A DNA stretch of 63,839 nt, counting the filler, from Sphacelaria rigidula (lineage: Eukaryota), in the NCBI GenBank assembly GCA_964200075.2. It is 11 parts of 11 records of this genome, joined end to end, with 100 filler letters (N's around TTAATTAATTAA, not from the genome) between each part and the next. Parts side by side here need not be neighbours in the genome. Positions count along the whole stretch, not along the records: positions 52,316 to 58,027 come from CAXNAA020025049.1; 10 more parts are not named here. One strand, written 5' to 3'. The notes below the pieces were generated by a model. That model did no database searches. It was not told where the DNA came from and saw only the letters and a list, made by a program, of their open reading frames with translations. The position numbers and the translations under genes are program-made. How positions within the stretch are numbered: the stretch's first letter is position 1; every line of letters begins with the position of its first letter. Positions 17,222 through 58,274 of the stretch are shown in pieces.

Positions 17222-17439
17222 CTATAACAATGGACAAGCCGGTAGGACGACAATATTGATGATTTCATCGTAGACATGGGGGGAGCAGAAAAGGGCGGGC
17301 GGGCGGGGGGGTACTCATGATCATGCATGCCATAGTCATNNNNNNNNNNNNNNNNNNNNNNNNNNNNNNNNNNNNNNNNNNNNTTAATTAATTAANNNNN
17401 NNNNNNNNNNNNNNNNNNNNNNNNNNNNNNNNNNNNNNN

Positions 17440-22598: not shown

Positions 22599-24215
22599 TA
22601 AATTTCAAGCAGCAGTCTCTTTCGCCGCAGCAGCTTTACTTAGTTCAAGTAACTTCACCACCCCAAGCATCGACTGTAAGTTCAAGTAACTTGCCCCGGC
22701 TTGTCTGCGATCAAGTGACATGGCTTCGCTATCCCCACTTCAACTAACTTACCTTCCCAACTGTAGGATCAAACAACCTGCCTCAGCTATTCTAAGATCA
22801 AGTGACTTGGCTGATGAGACCCAGTTCAAGTAAGATGTTGCCCCAGATAGTGTAAGATCCAGCGGCTTGTCTTGCATATGGAGCGGTGTCGAAATAGTTC
22901 CGCGTTGGGGTTAGCATATACCTCTGCCCTCCCTGGAGGGCGGAAAGCGAAAAGCATGGGCCATATGTCCTGGAGCTTCTTGTTGCACCTTCCCACGGGC
23001 CATCATCAGCTGCACAGCCTGTGACGTACGCCACCGCAAACTTGTGATCGACCTGCAATGCCTCTCGTAAACGGGTTAAAATCGTGTTTTTGAAATGCGT
23101 TGCTGTATCACTCACCCAAACTCGGGGTACCCCCAGAGTTTTGCACCACTGCNNNNNNNNNNNNNNNNNNNNNNNNNNNNNNNNNNNNNNNNNNNNTTAA
23201 TTAATTAANNNNNNNNNNNNNNNNNNNNNNNNNNNNNNNNNNNNNNNNNNNNTCCCCCGTTTGAAAAGGGTTGGGGGTCAATTGTCAAAAGCCCAAAGGA
23301 AGCCACAAATGGGGACCCCCCCCCCCCCCCCCCCCCCCCCCCCGTTCCCCTTCACCTCCTGCCCACCCAGCGTGGGTTGATTTGTTGTCATTGTCGTTGA
23401 AACATCCTCCAGAAGCAAAACCACGGATGGTTATCTGCAGTGTTGCGCCTGAACACTTTATTTGTTTTTTTCAGTGTGATCATTCACGCCTCCGTCTAAG
23501 TGAGACATACGTCGAGGTGCTTGTGTTCCGTCTTTTCAGCTGACCCGATTTAAGTAGATCAAACTGCATCATCCCATGAGTGCACGCGACTGTGAAAACA
23601 GTTGGTCCGTGCTTATGAGTGCGGGCCTTTTTTTTTTTTTTGCCTTGGGAATATCTGATTTTCGTCTTCGAAAGCGTCAGGACGTACGTGACCAGCAAAC
23701 AGAGTTTAGTTGACTTGGATGGTTTGACGAGAGTCGTCTACGCAATGCGGGAGTACTGAATGGTCATTATTCAGTCCGCGATACCAAAATGTGGGGCGTA
23801 TGCCAAGAGAGAGGCATTTTGATCCCTTGAGATCACGGACTTGTCTCTCAATGTTGTTTTTTTGGGGGAGGCGAGAAAAGAGCGCATGACACGTGCGTGT
23901 GTGTTGGCGTAGAAATGTCAATGCGTTGTGTACTGGACTACTGTATTTCAGTGTCTTGAATTTTCTTGTGAAATAAAAATATGAGTGGACGCTCTTCTCT
24001 TGAGGTCTGTCATCGATCTTGCAACAGTCGCATGGCCTACAGTTCTACAGATGAGCAGTACCGTGCGTGCCCCCCCCCTACAGGATAACCGCTCTGTACG
24101 AGCATGAGTACACCCCCCCCCATCCGTCTCGAAAGGGATGCGTGGTCAATGGTCAAACGACCATGGCAGACGACAAATGAGTGTACCCCCCTCCCCCGCT
24201 CGTCCTCCCCTACAG

Positions 24216-28965: not shown

Positions 28966-29703
28966 NNNNNNNNNNNNNNNNNNNNNNNNNNNNNNNNNNN
29001 NNNNNNNNNTTAATTAATTAANNNNNNNNNNNNNNNNNNNNNNNNNNNNNNNNNNNNNNNNNNNNCCAAAAAATACTCCGTGTTACCTGGTTGTCGATTA
29101 CCACTAATCAACCCCAATGACTACCTCACTTACCCCCCCCCCCCCCAAGTGCTAACTTGATATGGTGCTTCTTACTATAGAGCTTACGTTGGCACGATAC
29201 CTGATGGGAAATCAATGTCAATGTACCAAGCAAGTTTTCAATTGCTTTTAGAATTTTCACCTGCTTGCCATGAGTCAAACCAATTCCATTTCTACTACGA
29301 CAGCAATGAATGCTGGTTGTTGAATAATGTGCATACTATGCATGGGTTACAACTGCCTCATGAAGAATACAAACTACACGCGGATGTTGTCGTACCTTCA
29401 AAACGTCTACTTGTACTCTCTCTGCAATACCGGTACTGCAAGAAAACCTCACGGGATTCTTGAAAACCATAACAAGAAGACGATCATGCAACAGATCTAG
29501 CAGCACTTGCAATGATTTTTATAAAACAAACTCGATAATGATTCATGAAACCGCCATTTACATATTCCAACGCAGATTGATGCGCTCCGAGTACTTCTAA
29601 CTGACGTCAATCGTTGACACAGATGCTGAGCCTCCCCACTTCATTTTCTGTGATGATGACGTGCTTGACGTCGAAGATTCTTGACCAAGATTATTATCGC
29701 TGT

Positions 29704-31024: not shown

Positions 31025-31834
31025 TCACGTTCTTCTGTGTTGGATTGTAGATCCAAAACGACTTGCTGTCCACGCTGTATCCACAGAGCCGTCCTTCTGG
31101 GGGTCGAGCTTCTTGGTGTGTGTTTCAAGGTCAACACACGCCCTGGCCCCGATAACCCGGAGATGCCCAAGGTTTGCCTCCTTGCCGTAGAAGCCTTTGT
31201 ACGGTGTGACATTCCCCAGTGCTGCATGCGGCACCCGGTTCGCTAGGTATACCGTGGTTTGCATAATAAGTTCTCCCCACAGAAAGTTCGGCAAGCCGGA
31301 GTCCGCGAGAAGGCAGCGCGCCATCCCGGCGAGAGTCCTCCCGTCACGCTCGCAGGCACCAATCTGCTGTGGTGTGTTTGTTGAGGCGAACTGGTGTCGA
31401 ATGCCAGTCTGAAGACAGTAGTTCTTAAACGCATCGCCGGTGTACTCTCCGCCTCTATCCCGGCGGAGGCGCTCGACTCGAAACTCACTGGGAACTACGA
31501 GCCCTTGCGCGAGCATTTCAAGAGAGTCGAGGGGGTCGCTTTTGTCCTTGATGAATATCTCCCTCCACTTGGTCACCTGTTCGGTGAACTTGCGGACGTA
31601 GTTGTAGCCCCCCAACGCGGGAGGAGTGATGGGCCCCAAAAGGTCGGTGTAGATTAGTTGAAAGGGACGGGTGACGTTGTAGGTAGCTTCCGTGGGGTGA
31701 GATTGTTGTGTGCTTTTCCCGATGGCACAGACATCGCAAGCTGACACGTCCCCGTCGTAGTTGGTGCCGTTGCCGTCCACCTTCTTCAAGATATCCAGAC
31801 TCCTGCGGTTGACGTGTCCCAAACGCCGGTGCTA
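31025..31834 (-). pseudogene. Copia integrase remnant (rve core)
   Basis: HHCC and DDE motifs. The conserved Trp of LWHRRLGH is mutated to TAG at 31832-31834. Confidence 0.9.
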
Positions 31835-34800
31835 CAGATTCGCCGACTCTGCTCGCATGGCTGTTCCCGTTGTTCCACCCCTCAGATCCAACGAAAAAGA
31901 GTACAACAATTCGTCGCCCCCAAGCCGTTGTAACGGCAGAGTGATGCTTTCCATCTCCATGCGCGATTGAACAGAGTCGAAAATGGTAACAGTCCCCATG
32001 TTTGATGCCGCAGCTACTGAAAAGAGGTGCCGTCCCAGACCAGGCACGATGATGACCGAGAGTGAAACCGAGTTCTTTCCCCCGTCTCGTTCAGTAACAG
32101 TACCAGAATGGTGCCCGTCGCGACGCCTTCCACGATGTGTTTACCAGCGGTAACAATCCTGTGAGGCTACTTCCGCTTCGCTAGGTTTGTCATCCGGCGT
32201 TGAATTCCGGGAGCGAGGTCGCTGCCCAGGTAGTGCGCAGATGCACCGCTATCCACCAGCATGATCAGGGATGTGCTGTTGATGTCGTCCCTATTGTGCC
32301 CCACCGAGCCCAAAGCCGTTGGCGTAGCCACGTATGACTCCCCATCCGGAACTTCGCCAAATACCCCAAATAATCCCCGTGTATCTACAGTTCGTTGCTC
32401 AAGTGTTTTCTCCGGGGTCGGTTCAAGAACGAAGAATAAATTGTCGGGCTCTTCCAGCTCTTGGACTCCTCTGTCACCTTCGCGAGCGTAGTCCCGACAA
32501 ATGTGAAGGAAAAACCAAACGTTGGCTGTTCGGGGTCTGCTGTCTGGGCAATTCGCGCCCTGCCGGTGTTGACAAAGTTGATGCTACGAGCTTGTTCCTT
32601 CTTTGTAGGCTTCTGCTTGAAGCACTGCTCGTCGCTGTGACTTTTTGTCTTGTGTGAAGAACGCCACTTGGAATTTCCGTCTCCTCCTTCTTTCCAGTGC
32701 TTCGTCTTTTGCCTCTGCTGTTTTTAGTGCTCCTGTGATCTCTGTCGCAGAGGTTTAGGGCATGTGCTGCGACGGTGCCCATATTTGTCGCAGTTAAAGC
32801 ACTGGATGCTGCTGAGGTCGCAGTGCGCCGCCTGCATGGCCACGCCGCGGCCCACAACAAATTTTGTGGATACGCGAGCAAGGTTGTCGATGAACATGTT
32901 CCGCATGGTGGACTTGATCTCCTTCAACCCGTAGTTGCGGTCACGGAAGCTGGTCTGTCGTACAAAGTCGTAGTCGTTCGTGATGGAGTGCAGAATGATG
33001 TTCTCGTAACGCTCGTCAGAGACCACCTCTCCCATGCCATGCAGCCGGGCCCGCAGGTTGTCTATTTTATGCAAGAAATCCTCCGGATCCTGTCTATGCT
33101 GCATCTTTGTATTGCACAGCTCGTCGTGGCATACTCGTCGCGTCTCTTTCGTGTCATATTTGCCCGCAAGGGCTTTCCAGACAGCAATCCCATCGCCGAG
33201 TCCCTCCTACTGCCTCCGGCCCTCGTACTCTACAGATGACAGATGACCCACCAGGGCGCTCAAAGGGTTGGACACAATATACAGAATGGATATACGCCTC
33301 ACAAATCGGTTTCAAAACCAAGTCAGACCAACAAATCCCTACCGAATGGTGAAACTCACTGCAGCAAACACTCATTTTCCGTATATGTTGTGCTGGGCAT
33401 GCACCCTTACAAGAAGGTTACGAATTACGAAGAGACAGACGATGCTGTTCGTGTACCCAGCTGTGCAGTGAACTCAAGGTGATCGGTGTGGCTCGCTTAA
33501 CCCTTAGACCGCGAGATTAGTTTTTAGTCTTTTTTGATCATGCATACTTTTTCCCACTTGAAATTGATGCCGATTCAACAGAAGACTAAGTCCTGTTGAG
33601 TGCAGCTGTTCGCTGTGCGGTTCCCGGAGCCGTCGCGGCGTCAAGAGGTTTGAATCGGAGTTACTTTTGTGCGTGTCCTCATGCATCATGTGTGATGTGT
33701 ACCCAGTAACACAGAAGCAACAGCATGGCGACTGGCGGAGGTATAGGGTGTGGCGTGTACTGCAGAAGACATCACCATGCCGACCGTAGTATGCCGTTCT
33801 GTTTGTTGCAATTGTGTGTGTTTGGTCGCGTAAATCATTTGTGAAGGTATAACGTCGTTTATTCATCTCATTCTGTCACCCCCGTAGACATATCCAGACC
33901 TGTCTCCGACTGCGGGACAATCACCCGTGTTCCCGGAAAGCGGTAGCTGGTACACACACACTACAGTGCAGCTGGTTACGATGCAGACCTCACAGCTGGT
34001 TCGAACGGCGGTCAGTGCAAAAGTGCAGTGCAGTGCAGTACAGTACAGTATCGAGGTCGTGCATCTCGCGGCGTTGTCATCGGCACTGTCTGTTTCACAC
34101 CGTCGTGACTCAGGGGTTCAAGGACACTTCGTGAATGGTAGATCTCGGACACAATTTGCAAAAATTTCCTTTATATTTTGGCCCCGATTAGCCTGTATCA
34201 CACTACAGTGCAACAGTACAACAGTGCAGTAGCAAGGTGGTGAAACATGCAGGGTGAAGTATATACAAGGTGGTGAAACATGCAGTACCAAGGTGGTGAA
34301 ATAGAATTGGGTTCAGGCGAATTTTGAGGTTTTCGATCGATAGAAGCAAGTGAAATTCGTGAAGCGGTACTTAGTCGCTTGTGAACAGCACAGTCTGCGG
34401 TACTTCGTAGCTTGTGAACAATACAGTCTGTACAGTCTGTACTGTCTGCACTGTTAGCATGCAGGGTGTCTGGATGTGTCCGTGCGTATTTCGTACGGTA
34501 GGATGTGAACCAAAAGCAGGCAACGTGCAGTACAAACAGCGCGAGACTATCTGTTCTTCTTGAAATACAATGAGACGTGAAAAGGACTCGGACACCGAGC
34601 AGTCATTCACTTTTTTCACAACATCGCACAGTAGTACCACGTATATAGAAAATAAACTGGTACGCTTTTCTGATGAGACCCACAACATATGGGAACACGA
34701 AACACGATGATCGAAGTTTGAACTCTTGAAGTCTGAAGCCTGTCGGCCTATCTGGTGACGAATCACGCCGCATGGAGCNNNNNNNNNNNNNNNNNNNNNN

Positions 34801-35502
34801 NNNNNNNNNNNNNNNNNNNNNNTTAATTAATTAANNNNNNNNNNNNNNNNNNNNNNNNNNNNNNNNNNNNNNNNNNNNCAATCAGCGCCCTTCAAACTGT
34901 TCCGAGATTTAAATTACGAATACCAAGCCCAGTTTTCAGCTAATCTCTACATGCTTCAAATCGCAGTAACCGTCATCGACACGGAAATCCAATGAAAAAA
35001 TCATATTTTTAAAACGGTTACTACGGGGGTCGAATTATACCCGAAACCATGATGTTCCGGTGATGTTGGGTGTTGGCGTCCTCTAACTTCCGCTGATGAT
35101 ACGCACGGAAGACCCAGGGAGCCTGATGACGGTGTCCCCTATATCTGTTGTAGAAAAGCCCAGATCGCCCTCAAACTCGGCAGTTCCGTAGGTGGTGATG
35201 CTCAAAATGGAACAACTGTATTCTTGACAATATATCATGGTTTCTCCGTTCTCTACCGGCTTCCGGCGGTTCCGGCATGAAGATCCCCGGAAGGCGGTAC
35301 AGAATGCCCTAAAAGAAAATAATTAAACGATGCGTCCCGGGAGAGTCCAAGGAACACATGTACAAAGTTGTGGTGGAGAAACTCGAAAACCTCATACCGT
35401 TTTTCTTGCCTTGACGTCAAATTCATCCCAAAAGACGTTTCTACACTAAAACCAAGTAGTTAGGAGTTGCAGGTTTCAAGCCCACGTCCTCCACAAACGC
35501 GC

Positions 35503-39976: not shown

Positions 39977-40741
39977 TATCGCATCTGTGTGATTTCTTCT
40001 TGTACGATAAGTGATTATAAATGATTTCGCTCCATGTTCGGGTCATTTGTCTTTCACCACGGGAAGCGTCCGCGTGATGTGTCTGGTACAGAGCAATGTC
40101 CTGATGTCGGTGCGGTTCAAACTGTGACGACAACAAAAACAACAACTACAACGACAAACTGGGCACACGGACCGTGCTTTATCCCCAATCCACATCCCCG
40201 CGAGTATACAAACACCCATCAACATACTTTTCGCCACAAATATTGGATCCCGAGCATTGGCGGGTCATGATAATGCGAGGGGGCAAGGATCATCCCCCCG
40301 GGAGCAATGCAACGGCAGTGGCGCGCTTCTTACGCAAATCTTGTCCGGTTCAGGGGCTTTTAGCGATTGTAGGCGCAGAAGAATATGGATCAGGGTACCA
40401 CCGTTTGCAAATGACTGCGGGATGTTCATAGCATATTGGGAAATAATCCTGGTGTACTCACATATTTCATAGGCCGTGTTTTGGATTAGATTAAGGGCTC
40501 CTGACAATTCCAACCTCAGGAACAAAAAATGTGAATCCCCTACGAGCTGGGCCAGCCTAAAAACGGATTTAAGCTCTAAAAGCAATATCTCNNNNNNNNN
40601 NNNNNNNNNNNNNNNNNNNNNNNNNNNNNNNNNNNTTAATTAATTAANNNNNNNNNNNNNNNNNNNNNNNNNNNNNNNNNNNNNNNNNNNNCTCGTCCCC
40701 CCCAAACCAAGGCGGTGGGGGGGGGGGGTGCTGTGGTGTCG

Positions 40742-45650: not shown

Positions 45651-46503
45651 CTACTCCTCTCTCGCCAGCCGTAGTCTACGCCACCGACGACCCCTCTATG
45701 TCCATGTACCACCCACATTTTCCCGGTCCATAGAAAAACCTTGGACGGAGAGGGCGTGGGGGGTGGGTGGGAGGTGTACTCATGATCTTGCGTGCCATTG
45801 TCATTCGGCCATTGGCCTCGCATGCCTACAAAGCCGGGACAGAGCACGTCGGCTTTCCGCTGGACCAGGATCGCAACCACCACGCGCGAAGCGCTGTGAC
45901 GTGTTCGGCGAGTCGCGTGAAGGGTGCGCTATCTCCTGCTACAATTATCAGGTCCGAAGCGTACGGATTATCTTGCATATGGATGGCGACATCGAATGAG
46001 CTGCTTCATATTCCGGTGTCACCACTTCCAGCCATCTCCTTTGCGCGGAGTTCAGGTTCTCCCGCCCCACAGGATATGACGTAGCTCAACCACCGGTATG
46101 GTTACCGCGAAAAAATGCGAGCGAAAAAAAAGGACTGGTATCCTGGTTGCGTAGTTTCGCGTAGAGTGGCGTGTTGTACAGCGGCGTCATTGCCAACAGA
46201 CGCCAACGCTCAAGGTCGGCGGGAGGGGGAAGGGGGGCGTACTCATTTGTTGCTCGCTTTAGGCGTTTAACCATTGACCACGCATCCCTTTCGAGACGGA
46301 GGCGGCGGGGGGGGGGGGGGGGGGGGGGGGCCCCCATTTGTGTGTTCCTTGGGTTTTTTGCCCATGTCCCCCCCCCCCCCGTCGGGGGGGGCCCCCCGTC
46401 CTCNNNNNNNNNNNNNNNNNNNNNNNNNNNNNNNNNNNNNNNNNNNNTTAATTAATTAANNNNNNNNNNNNNNNNNNNNNNNNNNNNNNNNNNNNNNNNN
46501 NNN

Positions 46504-51250: not shown

Positions 51251-52531
51251 ATCTACCCATGCACTCACTCCCCTACACCAGAACAGCAGGTGTTCGACAT
51301 TTGTCTTTCTGACCGCTTTATATTTATCCGAAACAAACGGCAAAGCAACAGTTCGAACACGATGAACACCTGCAGCAGCGTCAAGGGGGCGCGGGAGGGC
51401 GAGTGTCGCATGCACATGGGAAGATCGAAAAACGAACACACAACTTCCTGTCTCCAGATTCCATCCGCGCTCTGCACGAAAAATCACGCCTCACACAACA
51501 AAACGAAAAAGAGAACCCCTCCCGCTTCCTAGCCCCGCCCCTCCACGTAACGCCGGTCGGCCGCACGAGACATACCACACATAGGTAATACACAGGGTGT
51601 ACCACCCATGGGGACAACAACCCAAAACTCGACCCTTTCAACCGCCCACCCTTCTACGCAAGCACCCCACAAGGCAGCAAGACACCTCAAACACGACTTC
51701 CACAGGGAAAGCACTGTCCATTTCCCATCTCCACTCTCTTGCGCGTGCCACCCACGGTGACGACAAATCTTGAGCTCACCTCACTCAACGTAAACGCCCT
51801 CTCCTTTCCCCCACTCCCACTCCCACGCATATCCAACCGAGAGCAGCACCAAATGCCAACTTCGACTTCCCCAGCCGGCATGGTCTTTCCCTGCCCCGTT
51901 CCCACTCTCACTAGTACTCTACTCAAGGCGACAACGAGCACCAAGCTCATTTTCTCAGCGGGTAACCCATCCCCCTTCCCGACTCGCTCTACAAGCAAGC
52001 TCTACCCCTCGTTTCCTGCCCCCCTCCCCGTCTTCACAAAACCCGCCAGCCACAGGGCATACCAGAGGTGATTGATGGAGTGTAAAGGCCAGGACGACTA
52101 ACAGACTGCTGCCGAGATACCCCCCCCCCCCCCCACCCCCCCCCCCCCGCCCCAACAGGGCGCGAGCCGCAATGTCAAACAACCCAAGGAAACACCCACA
52201 GGGATCAACAACACANNNNNNNNNNNNNNNNNNNNNNNNNNNNNNNNNNNNNNNNNNNNTTAATTAATTAANNNNNNNNNNNNNNNNNNNNNNNNNNNNN
52301 NNNNNNNNNNNNNNNAAAACGTCGATCCTGAGGTGTTTTGAACTACGGCGCGGTCCTCTAAGCACGCGGTCCTCTCACGCATCACACCGGTTTCAAAGTG
52401 CTGGATTCAGCACTCTGTTCATGTACTTACGTTTCCACTATTTTTCTTGACACAGGTTTTATTGTAACACGTCGCCGTGGTGATGTGATGGGTGGCTCCA
52501 TCACGCCGTCAGGTGCCGATGTATCGTCAGA

Positions 52532-52776
52532 GACACTTTCCACGATAGACCCCCCAAAAGGGCATGATTTTGGGAGGCAAAATCTTCACGTAAATCAAAA
52601 TGGGAAAAGCCGAGCACAACGAGAAGCTGGGAATCCCCACGCTTGGGTTCGTTCTAGCCAATGTCGCCAATATGAGGCGCTTCATACAGCCTGAACCCGT
52701 ACATCAGGCGCTGTATGTCCATTGTTTTCGTGACACTTATAGCTAGATTGGGGAGGGGGCCATCGTAGAAAGTGTC
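52532..52776. mobile_element. 245-bp MITE, GACAC...GTGTC termini, exact 4-bp TSD CAGA
   Basis: CAGA|GACACTTTCCACGAT...ATCGTAGAAAGTGTC|CAGA. Confidence 0.85.
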
Positions 52777-52934
52777 CAGACTCCGTACGAGATATGGGTA
52801 CTAGATAACCAGAATTCCGTCCCGTGCTTGTATGATGTTACCGAGATGTCATAGCTGCCATGCCTATATGCTGAGAGCGCCCGATATCTTCCAACCGATG
52901 CCACTGTTGATTGAACTCATCGTTCACGCTGCAG

Positions 52935-53032
52935 CAATCGAGACAGGGGTGTCCAATCAGGACAACTTGGATCTAACTGAGCCTGTGGTGCACCGCGAAC
53001 TCCGCCGCCGCGGCGGCCGGCGGCGCAGCAAG
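52935..53032 (+). CDS. Cys-repeat protein, propeptide-like exon (IETGVSNQDNLDLTEPVVHRELRRRGGRRRSK)
   Basis: CTGCAG acceptor and AAG|GTGATG donor. Ends in phase 0, in frame with the first Cys-module exon. Confidence 0.65.
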
Positions 53033-53261
53033 GTGATGACCATGTGCTCGCGGATGTACGGTAGGACCGTGTGTTCGATGGTGCAGGAGTATCTGTTTCA
53101 CAGTCCGGCTGCAAAATATTTGATGTAGCCTAGTCTGACCGACTTGCAAAGCATTTTATACAGGAACGCCCCTTCCTTGTCCTCACGATGTAGCAATGTA
53201 CCACAAAAACAAGACTAATGAGTAGTACTACTCGCCTGCCGTTTCCCCACGCAAAATTCAG

Positions 53262-53367
53262 CGGGACAAATGCAGGCACTACTACTGCCCTTCGGGCTGG
53301 ACGCCCATCGATGACTACTGGAAGAAGTGCCGCGGCAAGTGCGACACGTACGAGTGTTGCTACCAAG
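53262..53367 (+). CDS. Cys-repeat protein, module 1 (RDKCRHYYCPSGWTPIDDYWKKCRGKCDTYECCYQ)
   Basis: TTCAG acceptor, AAG|GTGAGC donor, six-Cys motif. Confidence 0.85.
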
Positions 53368-53600
53368 GTGAGCGAACAGTGTCTCTAAGCGAAAGTTTAC
53401 CCTTCACTCCATGGCCAGGTTGTCAACTTTCATGTTTACAATGCATGAAGAGTGAAGGTCGACAAAACGGATCCATCATGTTTTTATTTTTTCTCGAACA
53501 GGAGTTTTCTAGCGTTGAGCCGGAGAAAACTACGAAGTGCGAAGCCGCATGGTTCTCTTGCACGCGATGACCAGTTCTCTCTCGTGCACGCTTGTCGCAG

Positions 53601-53708
53601 AGAGAAAGAAGACCTGCAAGGACGACTACCACTGCCCGGCGGGCTACGTAAACCATGGAAAAAAGGAATGCCGCGGCGAGTGCGACGAGTACGAGTGCTG
53701 CGAGAAAG
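53601..53708 (+). CDS. Cys-repeat protein, module 2 (ERKKTCKDDYHCPAGYVNHGKKECRGECDEYECCEK)
   Basis: GTCGCAG acceptor, AAG|GTGAGG donor, 108 bp, phase 1-1. Confidence 0.9.
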
Positions 53709-53937
53709 GTGAGGGAGCTCTTCCGCTGTGTGTGGATTTCGCATCTACCCTCTCGTGAAGACCAACCAAAGACAAGAAGGCACAATTGGTTTCGACGGCA
53801 GGTCATGAGGAGGTGACACGTTATGAGGTTCGGTCACTGACTCTACGTTAGACTGAGTCGCAGCATCCACATAGTATTGCATGTATTTTCTCGCCAAACC
53901 GTTATAGCTAATTCCCTCACTTGCACGCTTGTCGCAG

Positions 53938-54045
53938 AAGAAAAAAAGACGTGCAAGGACGACTACTACTGCCCGGCGGGCTACATAACCCTCGGTAGCA
54001 GGGAGTGCCGCGGCGAGTGCGACGAGTACCAATGCTGCTACAAGG
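53938..54045 (+). CDS. Cys-repeat protein, module 3 (EEKKTCKDDYYCPAGYITLGSRECRGECDEYQCCYK)
   Basis: GTCGCAG acceptor, AGG|GTGAGC donor, 108 bp, phase 1-1. Confidence 0.9.
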
Positions 54046-54266
54046 GTGAGCAGAACTCTGCTTCTAATATGTAAATATCGCATCGCCCCTCACGCGAAGA
54101 CCGACCGTCGACGATTCGGCACACTTCTCTTGTCATAGCCGGAGATCAACACGTATGTGTAGTCTTTGATTTACCCATGGACGTGGTCGTAGCATTTGAC
54201 CGCAAAAGACTGCATGTTCTTTCGTACACGCCGTGAGCAGTTCCTTCGTCTGCATCCCTTATGCAG

Positions 54267-54371
54267 AGAAAAAAAAGACGTGCAAGGACTACTACTGTCC
54301 CTCGGGCTACCAAAACCGCGGCGCTAAGGAGTGCAGCGGCGAGTGCGACACATACGAATGCTGCAAGAAGG
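54267..54371 (+). CDS. Cys-repeat protein, module 4 (EKKKTCKDYYCPSGYQNRGAKECSGECDTYECCKK)
   Basis: ATGCAG acceptor, AGG|GTGAGC donor, 105 bp, phase 1-1. Confidence 0.9.
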
Positions 54372-54647
54372 GTGAGCATCTAACGATCTCCGTAGTAGAT
54401 TGCTCTAGTATCAACCTCCCCGGAAGTACTTCACATTTCGGCATGTGATACGGCAGCGCACGTCGTCCTCGTTGGATGCTAGCTCCCACATCACTCCGGG
54501 AGTTGTGCGGGCTACCGTCTCACGGAGGAACCCGCTCGGGATAGTACGCGAAACATCTCATGCCCAGGAAGCCTGCGAATCTACAAAAACCTCGAGAAGT
54601 AAATGTACCGTGCTCTTTTTATGTCGCCGCCTTTCCGTCCATTGCAG

Positions 54648-54784
54648 AGGATGAGACGTGCAGCGACTTCCACTGCCCCAGGGGCTGGAGAGACCTGTAC
54701 GGCAATATCAAATGCGACGGTGAATGCGACAAGTATGACTGCTGTGAGGAGAAGCCCCGCCGCCGTTCGAGGAGCGACGACTAA
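54648..54784 (+). CDS. Cys-repeat protein, module 5 and C-terminus (EDETCSDFHCPRGWRDLYGNIKCDGECDKYDCCEEKPRRRSRSDD*)
   Basis: TTGCAG acceptor, phase 1, ends at TAA 54782-54784. Confidence 0.9.
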
Positions 54785-54922
54785 GTCGACTGTGAGTCCT
54801 GCATCGAATAGCTCGTTGTCGAGGTCACTGGGATAATCGAACGGCGTTTGCACGTTCGCAGCGTAAAATACCAGGCAAATCAGAAGGGCCGAGGTGGCCG
54901 ATCAGGAATGGGTAGATATGAC

Positions 54923-55179
54923 AAGCGATGCTACGGTAATGGTGAACTTTTTTAGCAAGATCTTGTCCGATTCAGGGGCTCCTAACGGTTTAAGATGCAC
55001 AAGAATATGGGTCAGGGCATCCCGTTTGCAAATTTATTCGTGATGTCCCCAGCACAATGGAATAGTGATCCTGGCGGACTCTCATACGTTTCATATTGAT
55101 CGTGATTTGGATGAGACAAGGAGCTCCTGAAAATTTCAACCTCAGAAAATATTTTTGCACCCCTAACATAGCGCTACTC
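54923..55179. mobile_element. MITE (family of 26538-26769) with exact 4-bp TSD TGAC
   Basis: TGAC|AAGCGATGCTACGGT...ACATAGCGCTACTC|TGAC. Shared internal GGGGCTCCTAA..AGAATAT..TCAGGGCATCCC. Confidence 0.75.
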
Positions 55180-57649
55180 TGACTGGTCCTATAAAAAGAG
55201 TGCCTTCGAAAATAACTTCGCGCACATTCAAAACGAGGTTCAACTGCCAGAGAGTGGTGTCCCCAGGGATGCGCGGAAGAAAGTATCCGTACACCTACGC
55301 CCCCCCTGGACGGCCGAAAAAAAGACTCTCAGCTTACATACTCTTTCTTCGCCTTTCTCCTCTCAATTCGTGTGTACAATGCACGTTACCCCTCGAACCC
55401 GTCATAAATACCTACTTGTTGGAAGCACGTCCATTCTGCTGTTGATTGGCTTCGGTCTGGGGTTAGTGGATGGAGACGGTCCCCTACCAAGACCATCTCC
55501 TGCGCCGGCAACCTAACCCCGACAGCTACAAGAAAACGCCCGCAACTCACATTCAAGCTTTCAAGGGTCGGACAAATAATGACTCGTCTGGAAATTACGT
55601 GGTTTTATTATCATGACTCGACTCGTGACGAATCAACCACTAGGCTTTATTTCAGCGTTGCAATCCAGGTAAACGCAGCCCAGACACGTGGCATGGTGCA
55701 AAGGTTGCGTGGATACCCCTTGGACCAGCGATCAACTTTGTTCCTATTTTTGGGCAATCAGGTCGAAGAATTCGTGAATTTGGTGATTTCTAGTGGTGGT
55801 GATTCGTCCTAACCGTGCAAGCTTGTGAAAATGGGAGTAACCAAAGGGACTCATGATGAGCCTACAACGGTGGTAGTGTAAACAGCGTTGTGGATAACTC
55901 GGTATGAGACAGGTTCTCGAAACAAGATAGAGGGCTTGGTATAGGATACAGTATAATCTTTTTCGATGATGATCTCCTCGAGGTGGCTGGTTCCTTCTCC
56001 GAAGAGAACCATAGTACTACGCCACCATCCAAAACTTGTTGCATCTGTTTCCTTCGTTTTCCTCCTACTCGTATCTATCAAAATTGCCTCATTATATTGC
56101 ATCATTATTTGATGAACACATCATTTGACTTTTTTCAGCACGGTTTGCTCGGCAATGCAGTGTCACACCATCGTGAGTAATGCGAGCGATGGTTCTACTA
56201 GGTACCTTGTCCATGCCTGCACACACGCGGTGCCCCTTTGTGCGTCGCAATGCCTTGCTAATGATTGTTCACCGACCGCCCCTGCCCCGCCCCACGCTGT
56301 CAACAGGAACCAACAACAGGAACAAGAGCATCACCAGACAAAGGCCGTGATCGGGTCGAGGTTGACGTCGAAATGCGACGGATGTAGGGGGGCGGGGGGG
56401 GGGGGGGGAATTTCGTTGGGGGGAACTGAGGAGGGGGACGGGGGGTCTTGGGCCCGGGGGAGAGGGCGGAAGCTGAGGCGATGAAGGNNNNNNNNNNAAA
56501 AAAAAAAAACAAGAGACTCCCAATAAAAAGCGTGGGTTGGGTGGGGGGTTTCGTTCGAAAGGCGTCGGAGGGGGGGGGGGGGGGGGGGGGGGGGAATCTC
56601 GTCGTGCGGAACTCATGAGAGGGAGCCGGTCACTTGGCCCTCCGGTCGATGTCCGAAGCAGAGACAGTGAAGGAGTATTATAAAATAATACGAGGACAGA
56701 TTTTTAGCAGTGCTGGAAGGATGCCGTCCCCATAATTGATTTCCTAGGTAACACCTGTTCTCAACATGTTTTTGGAGCGAAGCCGCGTCCACGTTGTACA
56801 ATCGTATGTGGCAATTCCATCCGAGACTTCTGGAGCTTATGGGTTCAATCGTTCATCTCCCGGGTTATACTGGAAGAATGGAATAGAGTTTATAGAGGTC
56901 AATGTGCTCTCTGTGGTCGGTAGACGGTCCGCATGTACGTTCGGCATAATATAGGCGAGATGACATGCTGCGATGAGGGTCCGACCAACTTGGATGAGTA
57001 CCGTCGGCCGATTCGGCAGAATAAATAATGACCGCGCCGCATAATGCGGCAAAGTGTGAACGTTATTGATGGCGAATGACGGTACAGCTTGCCACAACCG
57101 TTCCTATTTTCATCTACCGTTGAAGTTGAAGGCAGTGTAGACGTGCAGATCGACAGCTACGACACAGTTTGGTTAGACGTGGAGGTCTCGAGTCACGAAG
57201 ACTCTGTTTTGTCCCGAGAGATTTACAGCCGGGGTTCCCCCCTTACGGCTCTTACCCTGCCTCCCGACCTACGCATTTTCAGCTATGTTTTGAGGAGAGA
57301 CATGAGTGTTTGAAGTGAGTCCCTGTCTATCGAGCAATTGAGCCTGTCTGTCTTGAATGGGACCAAGCCACAATACCCCGGGGGTTCGCGAACCTCCCTA
57401 GTGCCTTCGGGTGACGCTGCGACAGCCCCTTCTCAAACATGCCCTAAACATTCACGAAGAAAATTACCTTACAGCGCATGATCGTTACGTTCAGGCTCGT
57501 CGAAGCCGCTCATATGGGCGACATTGGCGGAAGTGATCCCGATAGTGGCGATAGCTCCCCGTCGGTGTTCTCGAGTTTCGTAACTTTGATTTGCGTGAAG
57601 GTGGCCTCCGCGGTGGGCTAACCGTTCTCGCGGGTGGAATGCGCCAATC

Positions 57650-57860
57650 ACAAATAAATACCATACTGTACCCCGACGCTATTTTGCTTGTCAGCGCCCG
57701 AGTCTACCGCAGTTTACGCAGTTAGTTCCTTCACCGCAAATTCAGGCGCAGAAGAGTGCATCTTGCGAGGAGGCTCCCACGTACGTTCCTCAGCACCGAA
57801 TCCTTCCCAATTGACCAAAACAATGATATCACCATTGTCATTCTCAGCGACGTGCATCAT
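57650..57860 (-). pseudogene. Chromodomain remnant from the pol C-terminus of a Ty3/gypsy (chromovirus-like) element
   Basis: IIVLVNWEGFGAEERTWEP..MHSSAPEFAVKEL fits the chromodomain LVxWxGF...TWEP pattern. No introns or other gene context. Confidence 0.6.
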
Positions 57861-58274
57861 GTTCGTAGGATGGCCTGGGATAGTCAGTAAGATACACCTT
57901 GTCAGGACAAGGTACAACAGTCTACACTGCTGCCGAGATAGCCCCCCCCCCCCGAACCCGCCAAAAACCTACACGGAGGGCATGGGCAGAAATGCCGGTA
58001 GAGGTGGTTTCGGGCCACACGACGGCANNNNNNNNNNNNNNNNNNNNNNNNNNNNNNNNNNNNNNNNNNNNTTAATTAATTAANNNNNNNNNNNNNNNNN
58101 NNNNNNNNNNNNNNNNNNNNNNNNNNNGATTGATTGATTGATTGTCGCGCTTCAACTGACCCCCCAGGGGTCCAGCCGTGGTCTCATGATAGACGTACTC
58201 CACTACACCTCACATTCCAAGTTATCGTTGCAGCACTGCATCATGAACATCATAATCATCTCGACCATATTCAA

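What the first reader, a model, noticed from the sequence alone, without database searches (positions are those of the whole stretch)
52935..54784. One-exon-one-domain array of six-cysteine modules behind a polybasic pro-region: candidate new secreted peptide/polyprotein family
Seen in sequence: five consecutive exons each encode one C-x4/5-CP-x-G[YW]-x7/9-C-x-G[EK]-CD-x-Y-x-CC module. The internal exons are symmetric phase 1-1 (105-108 bp) at 329-381 bp spacing. Introns around modules 2 and 3 are still homologous (identical GCACGCTTGTCGCAG acceptors), so the exon+intron unit was tandemly duplicated. The Cys scaffold is fixed while the C2-C3 loop differs in every module (WTPIDDYWKK, YVNHGKKE, YITLGSRE, YQNRGAKE, WRDLYGNIK). 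An upstream exon ends in HRELRRRGGRRRSK-R, and KK/RKK motifs separate most modules. Inference: a secreted, convertase-processed, disulfide-stabilised protein whose module number could vary by exon skipping or shuffling. Possible roles are defence peptide, adhesive or cell-wall cross-linking through its many Tyr, or metal binding. I cannot assign the motif to a named Pfam family.
Basis: partly seen in the sequence, partly recalled or inferred. Interest (0 to 1): 0.8.

Follow-up and report, generated by a model that had tools for sequence, protein, structure and literature searches.

The report
New brown-algal secreted cysteine-repeat protein gene
This is a real, spliced and transcribed gene, most likely from a brown alga, that encodes five tandem 30-residue six-cysteine modules, one per exon, from a small family with no Pfam match that is probably an extracellular wall or adhesive protein.

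Summary
Six exons at 52935-54784 (+) encode a basic pro-region and five six-Cys modules. All five introns appear as GT..AG joints in RNA-like contigs and in no DNA contig.

The gene is cut at its 5' end. The window is a chain of ~5.7-kb contigs, and the upstream exon is not in it. An RNA contig shows that this exon ends in L-L-G-I-A-S-A-E-Y-E, which looks like the end of a signal peptide.

No known family fits. Pfam, PDB sequences, Foldseek and VIA gave nothing. A profile search of 1.84 billion proteins gave 30 hits. The only named ones are two unnamed partial Sphacelaria rigidula proteins.

Distant relatives carry the module between a signal-like segment and a membrane segment. Linker dibasic sites are not conserved in relatives, and four of five module cores are acidic. 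I therefore favour a secreted beaded wall or adhesive protein over a peptide polyprotein. Exon skipping is not shown.

This is a new domain family of a familiar kind, of moderate interest.

The parts
52316..58027 (.). The single assembled contig that holds the gene. It is bounded by N44-TTAATTAATTAA-N44 linkers, so DNA beyond these points is not physically linked to the gene.
   Evidence: N-run map; sequence
52935..53032 (+). Exon 0 (98 nt, starts in phase 1, ends in phase 0). It encodes an acidic stretch followed by a polybasic stretch that contains an R-x-L motif and an R-S-K-R site. An upstream exon carrying the start codon and a signal-peptide-like segment is absent from the window.
   Evidence: Acceptor CAG at 52932-52934. 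RNA-like contigs in X5 and X6 stop matching at 52933 and carry 73 foreign letters upstream. That 30-mer has 0 matches in the window at up to 3 mismatches. Motifs.
53033..53261 (+). Intron 1 (229 nt, GT..AG).
   Evidence: Joint in X7, depth 1840, side 46; absent from DNA run X1
53262..53367 (+). Exon 1, module 1 (106 nt, phase 0 to 1). This is the Trp-type first module.
   Evidence: Relative P0003 carries the same type with the same acceptor read-through.
53368..53600 (+). Intron 2 (233 nt). Its 3' end is homologous to that of intron 3.
   Evidence: Joint in X5; local alignment z 8.9
53601..53708 (+). Exon 2, module 2 (108 nt, phase 1-1).
53709..53937 (+). Intron 3 (229 nt).
   Evidence: Joint in X5, X6 and X7; similarity to introns 2 and 4
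53938..54045 (+). Exon 3, module 3 (108 nt, phase 1-1).
54046..54266 (+). Intron 4 (221 nt).
   Evidence: Joint in X5, X6 and X7
54267..54371 (+). Exon 4, module 4 (105 nt, phase 1-1).
54372..54647 (+). Intron 5 (276 nt). It resembles none of the other introns.
   Evidence: Joint in X5 and X6
54648..54784 (+). Exon 5: the terminal Trp-type module 5, a 12-residue Arg-rich tail ending in D-D, and the stop codon TAA at 54782-54784.
   Evidence: Relatives P0002 and P0030 have the same terminal type followed by a basic tail.
54792..54797 (+). GTGAGT just after the stop codon. It may be the donor of a 3'-UTR intron.
   Evidence: A 578-nt contig of X7 matches only 54727-54792, and RNA-like depth is 0 at 54846-54955. 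Not followed up.

Best explanation
This is a transcribed nuclear gene, 5'-truncated by the end of its contig, of a stramenopile alga. The alga is most likely a brown alga of or near the Sphacelariales. The gene encodes a secreted protein made of five tandem three-disulfide mini-domains.

Proposed route of the protein (inferred):
1. It enters the ER through a signal peptide encoded on an upstream exon that is missing here.
2. It loses an acidic propeptide at the R-x-L or R-S-K-R site.
3. It is exported as a bead-like rod of about 22 kDa.

Make-up of the rod: each bead is a 28-30-residue module of the form C-x4/5-C-P-x-G-[YW]-x7-9-C-x-G-x-C-D-x3-C-C. Four of the five module cores are acidic. The beads are joined by 6-7-residue Lys/Glu linkers and flanked by Arg-rich ends.

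My preferred function is an abundant structural or adhesive protein of the extracellular matrix. On this reading the Arg-rich ends and Lys linkers bind the polyanionic wall polymers (alginate, sulphated fucans). The acidic Cys modules and the 19 Tyr provide Ca2+-mediated or oxidative cross-linking.

The array grew by tandem duplication of an intron-plus-exon unit in phase 1. It belongs to a multi-copy, lineage-restricted family.

Shown: gene structure, splicing, transcription, family membership, absence from known families.
Inferred: secretion, likely. Processing and the matrix role are plausible but untested.
For: Gene structure and transcription:
- All five GT..AG introns are present as joints in RNA-like contigs of X5, X6 and X7, and in 0 contigs of DNA run X1.
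- Exon contigs have word depth of about 1000-7000, against 2.5-4.5 for the intron-bearing contigs of the same runs.
- X1 covers three introns where the RNA-like runs have depth 0.

Secretion:
- The RNA contig upstream of 52935 translates, in the exon-0 frame, to a peptide ending L-L-G-I-A-S-A-E-Y-E. That is a hydrophobic run followed by a small-x-small site (my translation).
- There are 30 Cys in five modules, and all six Cys positions of the module are invariant.
- Distant relatives P0019 and P0020 have an N-terminal hydrophobic segment, Thr-rich spacers, three modules and one 19-23-residue hydrophobic segment near the C-terminus.

A rod rather than a polyprotein:
- Linkers are only 6-7 residues.
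- In 12 internal-type relatives the linker is E-V-K-T, E-K-K-T, E-K-E-T, E-R-E-T or D-K-K-T, so it is mostly not dibasic.
- Module cores have pI 4.3-5.0 in four of five modules.

Composition of the 219 residues present: 30 Cys, 19 Tyr, and 46 K+R against 46 D+E.

The family is real and multi-copy:
- The profile search gave 30 hits at E<=1e-3. Of these, 17 carry the strict six-Cys pattern and 3 a variant with C3-x4-C4.
- DNA run X1 holds a 1363-nt contig about 97% identical over 53567-53975, and a contig with a Phe-type module variant.

Selection: purifying selection acts on internal modules (Nei-Gojobori dN/dS 0.27, 0.13 and 0.57).

Fold: the AlphaFold2 model of one module is a small hairpin-based fold at mean pLDDT 73.

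Precedents from papers:
- Extracellular adhesive proteins built of tandem three-disulfide EGF modules exist in mussels (PMC9314366, passages read).
- Acidic Cys-rich Ca2+-binding wall proteins with a C-Q-G-D-C-D motif exist in diatoms (PMC4712521 and PMC4557024, passages read).
Against: - The start codon and most of the signal peptide were not seen. Only the last 10 codons of the upstream exon are known, from a contig consensus.
- The runs are labelled RNA only as a guess. Contig depth is a poor measure of expression.
- No localisation, binding or cross-linking data exist.
- The Tyr before the C-C pair is invariant here but is R or E in most relatives. Tyr cross-linking therefore cannot be a family-wide mechanism.
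- The whole protein has no net charge, so polyanion binding would rest on the termini and linkers alone.
- R-S-K-R plus three dibasic linkers in this gene would also fit a processed polyprotein.
- No structural match supports any fold class: Foldseek gave 0 matches, VIA gave 0 at Z>=2, and the 97-residue model was poor at pLDDT 46.
- Organism identity rests only on the two named relatives.
Confidence: 0.5

Rival explanations
1. The gene encodes a polyprotein precursor. After signal-peptide removal, a kexin/furin-like or R-x-L-specific protease cuts at R-S-K-R and at the K-K or R-K-K linkers. This releases five separate disulfide-knotted peptides of about 35 residues that act in defence or signalling.
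For: - An R-S-K-R site stands directly before module 1.
- Dibasic residues occur in three of four linkers.
- The module size and three-disulfide content are typical of released peptides.
- mRNA contig depth is high.
- R-x-L processing of repeat precursors is described for diatom wall proteins (PMC4557024, passage).
Against: - Dibasic linkers are not conserved in relatives, which have E-V-K-T, E-K-E-T and E-R-E-T. The fourth linker here, K-K-E-D-E-T, places its pair right after the C-C.
- Four of five module cores are acidic (pI 4.3-5.0), unlike cationic antimicrobial peptides.
- First and last modules are conserved positional types. That suits an ordered multidomain protein better than interchangeable peptides.
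Confidence: 0.2
2. The gene encodes a secreted multi-headed protease inhibitor. Each module presents its C2-C3 loop, which carries a conserved Lys or Arg just before C3, as a reactive-site loop against microbial or grazer proteases.
For: - It is a tandem array of small rigid disulfide modules.
- The loop changes at non-synonymous sites 3-4 times faster than the scaffold (loop dN 0.35-0.51 against 0.09-0.13).
- A basic residue sits one or two positions before C3 in all five modules.
Against: - No similarity to Kazal, WAP, Kunitz or any other inhibitor family was found in Pfam or PDB sequences.
- Loop dN does not exceed dS.
- The loop consensus x-N-x-G-x-K-E is conserved across internal modules and relatives rather than hypervariable.
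Confidence: 0.1
3. The protein is intracellular and binds metal. On this reading it is metallothionein-like or a zinc-ribbon repeat, the Cys are metal ligands, and the polybasic stretch is a nuclear signal.
For: - Cys makes up 13.7% of the residues, including C-C pairs.
- Arg-rich stretches can act as nuclear signals.
- Brown algae have amplified another Cys-rich motif, EsV-1-7, which is thought to be a zinc finger (bioRxiv 10.1101/2024.02.19.579948, passage).
Against: - The upstream exon ends like a signal peptide.
- Relatives place the module between a signal-like segment and a membrane segment, with Thr-rich spacers.
- The module has conserved Pro and Gly and is rich in aromatic residues, unlike metallothioneins.
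- There is no Pfam match to EsV-1-7 or to any zinc finger at E<=10.
Confidence: 0.05
4. The locus is not a working gene of the alga. It could be a dead paralogue whose expressed sisters account for the RNA contigs, or a contig from an associated organism.
For: - The contig is short, unplaced and flanked by high-copy repeats, and the first exon is missing.
- Many RNA contigs differ from the window at 1-5% of letters (311 of 438 laid contigs in X6 are 95-99% alike). Variant ends are also seen.
Against: - The reading frame is intact through all six exons, with canonical splice sites.
- Several RNA-like contigs match exons with 0 differences: exon 0, 100 nt; exon 4, 73-80 nt; and 54727-54792.
- DNA contigs of X1 match with 0 differences over 291-322 nt.
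- The named relatives are brown-algal.
Confidence: 0.07

Closest known systems
Unnamed partial proteins of Sphacelaria rigidula (CAN0019027.1 = P0002, CAM9170217.1 = P0004)
   Same: They carry the same six-Cys module with the same spacing. P0002 shows the same order of internal module, terminal Trp-type module and Arg-rich tail ending in D-D. Profile E-values are 4e-26 and 2e-18, and P0002 is 73% identical to module 5.
   Different: They are partial, unnamed and uncharacterised, and they are not identical to this gene. They add no functional information.
EGF-like / cEGF modules of extracellular proteins, including mussel adhesive proteins (Pvfp-5beta, Mgfp-2)
   Same: - Modules of about 30-40 residues with six Cys, too small for a hydrophobic core.
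- A C-P-x-G-[YFW] hairpin motif.
- Tandem arrays in extracellular proteins. The mussel adhesive proteins are also rich in Tyr and Lys (PMC9314366, passages).
- Phase 1-1 exons are the classic metazoan module class (recalled knowledge).
   Different: - No Pfam EGF or cEGF match for any of the 5 modules at E<=10.
- The C-x-C pair of EGF is replaced by C-x4/5-C.
- The module ends in C-x-G-x-C-D-x3-C-C, which EGF lacks.
- No structural match was found.
Acidic cysteine-rich (ACR) domains of diatom frustulins
   Same: - Stramenopile cell-wall proteins with repeated acidic Cys-rich domains.
- A C-Q-G-D-C-D hexapeptide that fits the C-x-G-x-C-D core found here in 5 of 5 modules.
- A pre-sequence, and R-x-L processing sites in precursors (PMC4712521 and PMC4557024, passages).
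   Different: - ACR domains are about 50 residues and have a second motif, V-P-G-C-S-G, which is absent here.
- Frustulins also have polyglycine or proline-rich domains and a Trp-rich domain, none of which is present here.
- None of the 10 hits that carry a C3-x3-C4 core and were printed reads Gln-Gly-Asp between those two Cys.
- No frustulin sequence was available for a direct comparison.
One-exon-one-repeat genes of Ectocarpus (ROCO-LRR and NB-ARC-TPR loci)
   Same: They are brown-algal genes in which each repeat is encoded by its own exon of fixed length with symmetric phase, expanded by exon duplication (PMC3341825, passages).
   Different: - Those repeats are intracellular LRR or TPR units in 72-nt or TPR-sized phase-0 exons.
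- Spare or inactivated repeat exons lie in their introns and on the opposite strand. No spare module exon was found here.
- That paper reports very few loci of this kind outside the LRR and TPR genes.
Beta-defensin-type peptides (Cys order C..C..C..C..CC)
   Same: They share the order of six Cys ending in a C-C pair and a similar size (recalled pattern, not tested by any search).
   Different: The spacing differs. Four of five module cores are acidic rather than cationic. There is no Pfam or PDB sequence match.

Membership tests
EGF-like / cEGF (Pfam PF00008, PF12662) | A match to the family HMM | tested here: not met
   0 of 5 modules match at E<=10. P0002 has no match at E<=0.1. Only bacterial-type bottom hits of the profile search match cEGF.
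EGF-like / cEGF (Pfam PF00008, PF12662) | A C-x-C pair followed by x2-G-[FYW]-x4-8-C (PROSITE-type pattern, recalled) | tested here: not met
   The sequence shows C-x4/5-C-P-x-G-[YW]-x7-9-C in 5 of 5 modules. No C-x-C is present.
Frustulin ACR domain | The hexapeptide C-Q/E-G-D-C-D | tested here: inconclusive
   C-x-G-x-C-D is present in 5 of 5 modules, but as R-G-E, R-G-K, S-G-E or D-G-E. The motif definition comes from a PMC4712521 passage.
Frustulin ACR domain | The second hexapeptide V-P-G-C-S-G, a domain length of about 50 residues, and accompanying polyglycine, proline-rich and Trp-rich domains | tested here: not met
   None of these is in the 219-residue product. Modules are 28-30 residues from first to last Cys.
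Frustulin ACR domain | Ca2+ binding and cell-wall location | not testable with these tools
   This needs biochemistry.
[quoted passage not shown] | A match to the Pfam/InterPro model | tested here: not met
   No Pfam family at E<=10 for the 5 modules.
Convertase-processed polyprotein precursors | A signal peptide | tested here: inconclusive
   Only the last 10 codons of the upstream exon were seen, in an RNA contig. They end in a hydrophobic run followed by A-S-A.
Convertase-processed polyprotein precursors | Conserved basic cleavage sites between all released units | tested here: not met
   Dibasic residues occur in 3 of 4 linkers here. The linkers of 12 internal-type relatives are mostly monobasic.
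Convertase-processed polyprotein precursors | Released single units detected | not testable with these tools
   This needs peptidomics.
Brown-algal dynamic exon-shuffling loci (ROCO/NB-ARC type) | Each repeat on its own symmetric exon | tested here: met
   E2-E4 are 108, 108 and 105 nt in phase 1-1. Read-through ORFs of relatives keep Gly-Glu after the C-C-x-x in 11 of 13, which fits a G|GTGAG donor.
Brown-algal dynamic exon-shuffling loci (ROCO/NB-ARC type) | Spare or inactivated repeat exons in introns or on the opposite strand | tested here: not met
   An HMM scan of all six frames of the window found only the five coding modules (E 1e-19 to 1e-25). The next hit is E 0.004, on another contig.
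Known protease-inhibitor modules (Kazal, WAP, Kunitz, antistasin) | A match to a family HMM or to a solved inhibitor | tested here: not met
   Pfam gave none. The PDB sequence profile search gave 0 at E<=10.

The most novel reading that the evidence does not exclude
Brown algae, an independent multicellular lineage, invented their own phase-1, one-exon-one-module extracellular domain and expand it by exon duplication. This would parallel the metazoan 1-1 module class. The product would be a major Tyr-, Lys- and Cys-rich wall or adhesive protein that haloperoxidase and Ca2+ cross-link into the alginate and fucan matrix. It could underlie wall chemistry peculiar to the Sphacelariales, whose bleach-blackening walls I recall from memory and did not check.
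Probability: 0.15. Interest if true: 0.7.

Novelty: new variant of a known kind. Interest (0 to 1): 0.45.

Why it matters
Few protein components of the brown-algal extracellular matrix are known. Most genes unique to brown algae have no assigned role. This gene offers three things:
- a compact module that can be expressed for study;
- a clear duplication history for the exon-plus-intron unit;
- signs of abundant transcription.

If the protein is a wall or adhesive component, it gives a handle on how brown-algal walls are cross-linked. It would also be a second, independent example of extracellular proteins built from phase-1 exon modules. If single modules are released instead, it would be the first disulfide-rich peptide family described in brown algae. 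In either case the gene is missing or only partial in current annotation, so the module profile would help re-annotate these genomes.

Tried and rejected
**Known families**
- Pfam on the five modules and on 14 hits gave no family for the module.
- A PDB sequence profile search gave 0 at E<=10.
- Foldseek against PDB gave 0 at E<=10.
- VIA wide gave 0 at Z>=2 among 48,161 chains. The 35-residue model may simply be too small for this search.
- A fold of the 97-residue P0002 came out at pLDDT 45.9 and was not searched.
- The ESM Atlas search with P0002 gave a best feature score of 0.77 and TM<=0.40, all below the bar.

**Searches for more relatives**
- A word-index search with exon 0 found no candidate.
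- A search with distant relatives P0009 and P0017 returned only themselves.
- The metagenome scan gave 2 loci. Both are out-of-frame chance matches inside a bacterial gene.
- The viral scan gave 1 locus, a 7-residue chance match beside a stop codon.

**The window and its genome**
- The in-frame ATGs just upstream of 52935 are rejected as start codons, because RNA contigs splice at 52934|52935.
- The 30-nt consensus of the upstream exon and that of a variant 3' end are both absent from the window.

**RNA runs**
- No listed holder is on record as RNA. The RNA nature of X5-X7 is my inference from exon-only cover and spliced joints.
- Exon skipping: the joints 53701>54266 (six extra letters between) and 53706>54266 (one differing letter) have sides of only 23-24 letters. 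They cannot be told apart from paralogue transcripts.

**Literature**
- Six searches found no description of this module. 'CEGDCD' occurs in 0 of the papers held.
- Kroger et al. 1994 (PMC395402) is not held.
- Supplements of the Phaeoexplorer preprint were not opened. They may list this family among orthogroups.
Full report
**1. The observation**

The region 52935-54784 on the + strand reads as six exons with canonical GT..AG introns.

| Exon | Coordinates | Length | Phase |
|---|---|---|---|
| E0 | 52935-53032 | 98 nt | 1 to 0 |
| E1 | 53262-53367 | 106 nt | 0 to 1 |
| E2 | 53601-53708 | 108 nt | 1-1 |
| E3 | 53938-54045 | 108 nt | 1-1 |
| E4 | 54267-54371 | 105 nt | 1-1 |
| E5 | 54648-54784 | 137 nt | 1 to stop (TAA) |

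- Translating E1-E5 in frame and aligning them gives 11 invariant columns: six Cys plus P, G, G, D and Y.
- The junction codons between modules are GAG, GAA, GAG and GAG, so a Glu bridges each pair of modules.
- Only E2-E4 are phase 1-1. E1 runs from phase 0 to phase 1.

**2. Duplication history**

- Introns 2 and 3 end in the same 16 nt, within a 26-nt stretch with 22 identities. The local score has z 8.9, and 0 of 200 shuffles reach it.
- Introns 3 and 4 share a 32-nt stretch with 27 identities near the donor (z 8.0). Introns 2 and 4 score z 3.3.
- Introns 1 and 5 resemble none of the others.
- Exons 2-4 are 76-83% identical to each other at the DNA level, against 61-68% in every pair that involves exon 1 or exon 5.
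- The three internal modules therefore arose by tandem duplication of an intron-plus-exon unit. Modules 1 and 5 are older types.

**3. Splicing and transcription**

Logan contigs of four coded runs were laid on 52316-55600.
- Runs X5, X6 and X7 cover the exons at word depth of about 1000-7000 and have depth 0 in the bins that lie wholly inside introns.
- Their only intron-bearing contigs have depth 2.5-4.5.
- All five introns appear in these runs as GT..AG joints:
  - intron 1 in X7;
  - intron 2 in X5;
  - introns 3 and 4 in X5, X6 and X7;
  - intron 5 in X5 and X6.
- None of these joints appears in DNA run X1. X1 instead covers introns 3, 4 and 5 at depth of about 66-77.

Caveats:
- The runs are labelled RNA only as a guess.
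- Contig depth is not a sound measure of expression.

**4. The gene is cut at its 5' end**

- The window is a chain of contigs of about 5.7 kb joined by N44-TTAATTAATTAA-N44 linkers. The gene's contig is 52316-58027.
- In X5 and X6 a contig that matches exon 0 stops matching at 52933 and carries 73 foreign letters upstream.
- The printed 30-letter consensus has no match in the window at up to 3 mismatches.
- Read in the exon-0 frame, it encodes a peptide ending L-L-G-I-A-S-A-E-Y-E. That is a hydrophobic run followed by a small-x-small site, which looks like the end of a signal peptide. This is my translation and my inference.
- The in-frame ATGs just upstream of 52935 are therefore not the start codon.
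- A phase-1 intron close to a signal-peptide cleavage site is a known regularity (PMC1626468, abstract seen in the listing).

**5. The product**

Counts below exclude the missing exon.
- It has 219 residues: 30 Cys, 19 Tyr, and 46 K+R against 46 D+E. The pI is 7.0, and there is no N-x-S/T site.
- After the R-S-K-R site it has 186 residues and a mass of about 22 kDa.
- Module cores have pI 7.8, 5.0, 4.3, 4.5 and 4.8.
- Linkers are 7, 7, 7 and 6 residues. The tail is 12 residues, Arg-rich, and ends in D-D.
- An R-x-L motif (R-E-L) lies ten residues before R-S-K-R.

**6. Relatives**

*Search results*
- Pfam has no family for the module.
- A profile of the five modules was run against 1.84 billion representative proteins. 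It gave 30 hits at E<=1e-3, of which 3 are at E<=1e-10.
- By pattern, 17 of the 30 carry the strict six-Cys module, and 3 (P0009, P0017, P0019) carry a variant with C3-x4-C4.
- The other 10 are unrelated repeat proteins that share only the C-P-x-G-Y part or are low-complexity.

*Close relatives*
- The only named hits are two unnamed partial proteins of Sphacelaria rigidula.
- Thirteen single-module hits are ORFs called on short genomic contigs that read through the exon borders. Eleven of the 13 continue with Gly-Glu after the C-C-x-x, as a G|GTGAG donor would. Eleven of the 12 internal-type ORFs have a small residue followed by Glu before the module, as a CAG|AG acceptor would.
- The one-exon phase-1 structure therefore appears conserved in relatives. 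This is an inference.
- Module 1 and module 5 recur as positional types in P0003, P0030 and P0002. P0030 and P0002 also show the basic C-terminal tail.

*Copy number*
- The family is multi-copy in the source organism. DNA run X1 has a 1363-nt contig with 11 differences over 53567-53975 and a contig with a Phe-type module.
- The RNA-like runs show a variant polybasic region and a variant C-terminus.

*Distant relatives*
- P0019 and P0020 have an N-terminal hydrophobic segment, Thr-rich spacers, three modules and one hydrophobic segment of 19-23 residues near the C-terminus.
- This places the module outside the cell in those proteins.

**7. Structure**

- AlphaFold2 on one module with 19 aligned sequences gave mean pLDDT 73 and short hairpin bridges.
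- Foldseek and VIA found nothing, which means little for 35 residues.
- The 97-residue model was poor.

**8. Selection**

- Among modules 2-4, Nei-Gojobori dN/dS is 0.27, 0.13 and 0.57.
- Loop dN (0.35-0.51) is 3-4 times the scaffold dN (0.09-0.13) but does not exceed dS. The counts are very small.
- The loop is not hypervariable. Internal modules and relatives share x-N-x-G-x-K/R-E.

**9. Interpretation**

- I read this as a secreted, disulfide-stabilised, bead-like protein of a lineage-restricted family. A structural or adhesive role in the polyanionic brown-algal matrix is the most likely function.
- The short, non-conserved linkers and the acidic modules argue against a polyprotein of cationic peptides. 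The R-S-K-R site and this gene's own dibasic linkers keep that rival alive.
- Processing at R-x-L, as described for diatom wall-protein precursors (PMC4557024, passage), is an alternative to furin-type cleavage.
- The Tyr-based cross-linking idea can hold only for the Tyr-rich subfamily. Most relatives have R or E at the position of the invariant Tyr.

**10. Comparison with known systems**

- *EGF-like modules.* The module works like other small three-disulfide extracellular repeats, such as the EGF modules of mussel adhesive proteins (PMC9314366, passages). It fails the EGF membership tests.
- *Frustulin ACR domains.* It shares only the C-x-G-x-C-D core with these domains (PMC4712521, passage). 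It lacks their second motif, their size and their accompanying domains.
- *Ectocarpus LRR and TPR genes.* A one-exon-one-repeat architecture is already known in these genes (PMC3341825, passages). It has not, to my searches, been described for a Cys-rich secreted module. No spare module exons lie in the introns here.

**11. Verdict**

This is a real and correctly described feature. It is a new domain family of a familiar kind. Function and processing are untested.

Noticed in passing
window 1-63839 (linkers at about 5714-5813, 11527-11626, 17340-17439, 23153-23252, 28966-29065, 34779-34878, 40592-40691, 46404-46503, 52216-52315, 58028-58127): The window is an artificial chain of contigs of nearly equal length (about 5.7 kb). 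They are joined by N44-TTAATTAATTAA-N44 six-frame-stop linkers, so neighbouring segments are not physically linked.
   Followed up: yes
window 31025-31831 (-): An ORF with weak matches to the integrase core (rve, E 2e-5) and the GAG-pre-integrase domain, both below Pfam's cut-offs. It is probably a decayed LTR-retrotransposon fragment. It was the only one of 27 long ORFs with any Pfam match.
   Followed up: partly
window 52316-52425, 52536-52755, 54956-55065, 55506-55600: These stretches flank the gene and have summed word depth of 1e5-1e6 in DNA run X1, against about 60 for unique parts. They are high-copy repeats and probably explain why the contig breaks inside the first intron.
   Followed up: no
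window 54792-54797 and downstream: GTGAGT lies 8 nt after the stop codon. A 578-nt RNA-like contig matches only up to 54792, and RNA-like depth is 0 at 54846-54955. This suggests a 3'-UTR intron, or else a paralogue whose sequence diverges at that point.
   Followed up: no
window 53014-53032, 54780; run contigs: Contigs in the RNA-like and DNA runs reveal sister copies. One has 19 different letters in the polybasic stretch. One ends with an extra Tyr before the stop and has a different 3' UTR. One DNA contig has a Phe-type module loop. At least two loci or alleles are therefore expressed.
   Followed up: partly
window 8925-9293 (+): A weak module-like stretch (HMM E 0.004) resembles the D-D-F-x-C-P-x-G-F part of the module but lacks the Cys. 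It is either chance or a decayed relic, and it lies on a different contig.
   Followed up: partly
window 52120-52150, 56390-56600: Long C and G homopolymer runs lie next to the contig end and to an N10 gap. They are likely assembly-breaking low-complexity DNA.
   Followed up: no
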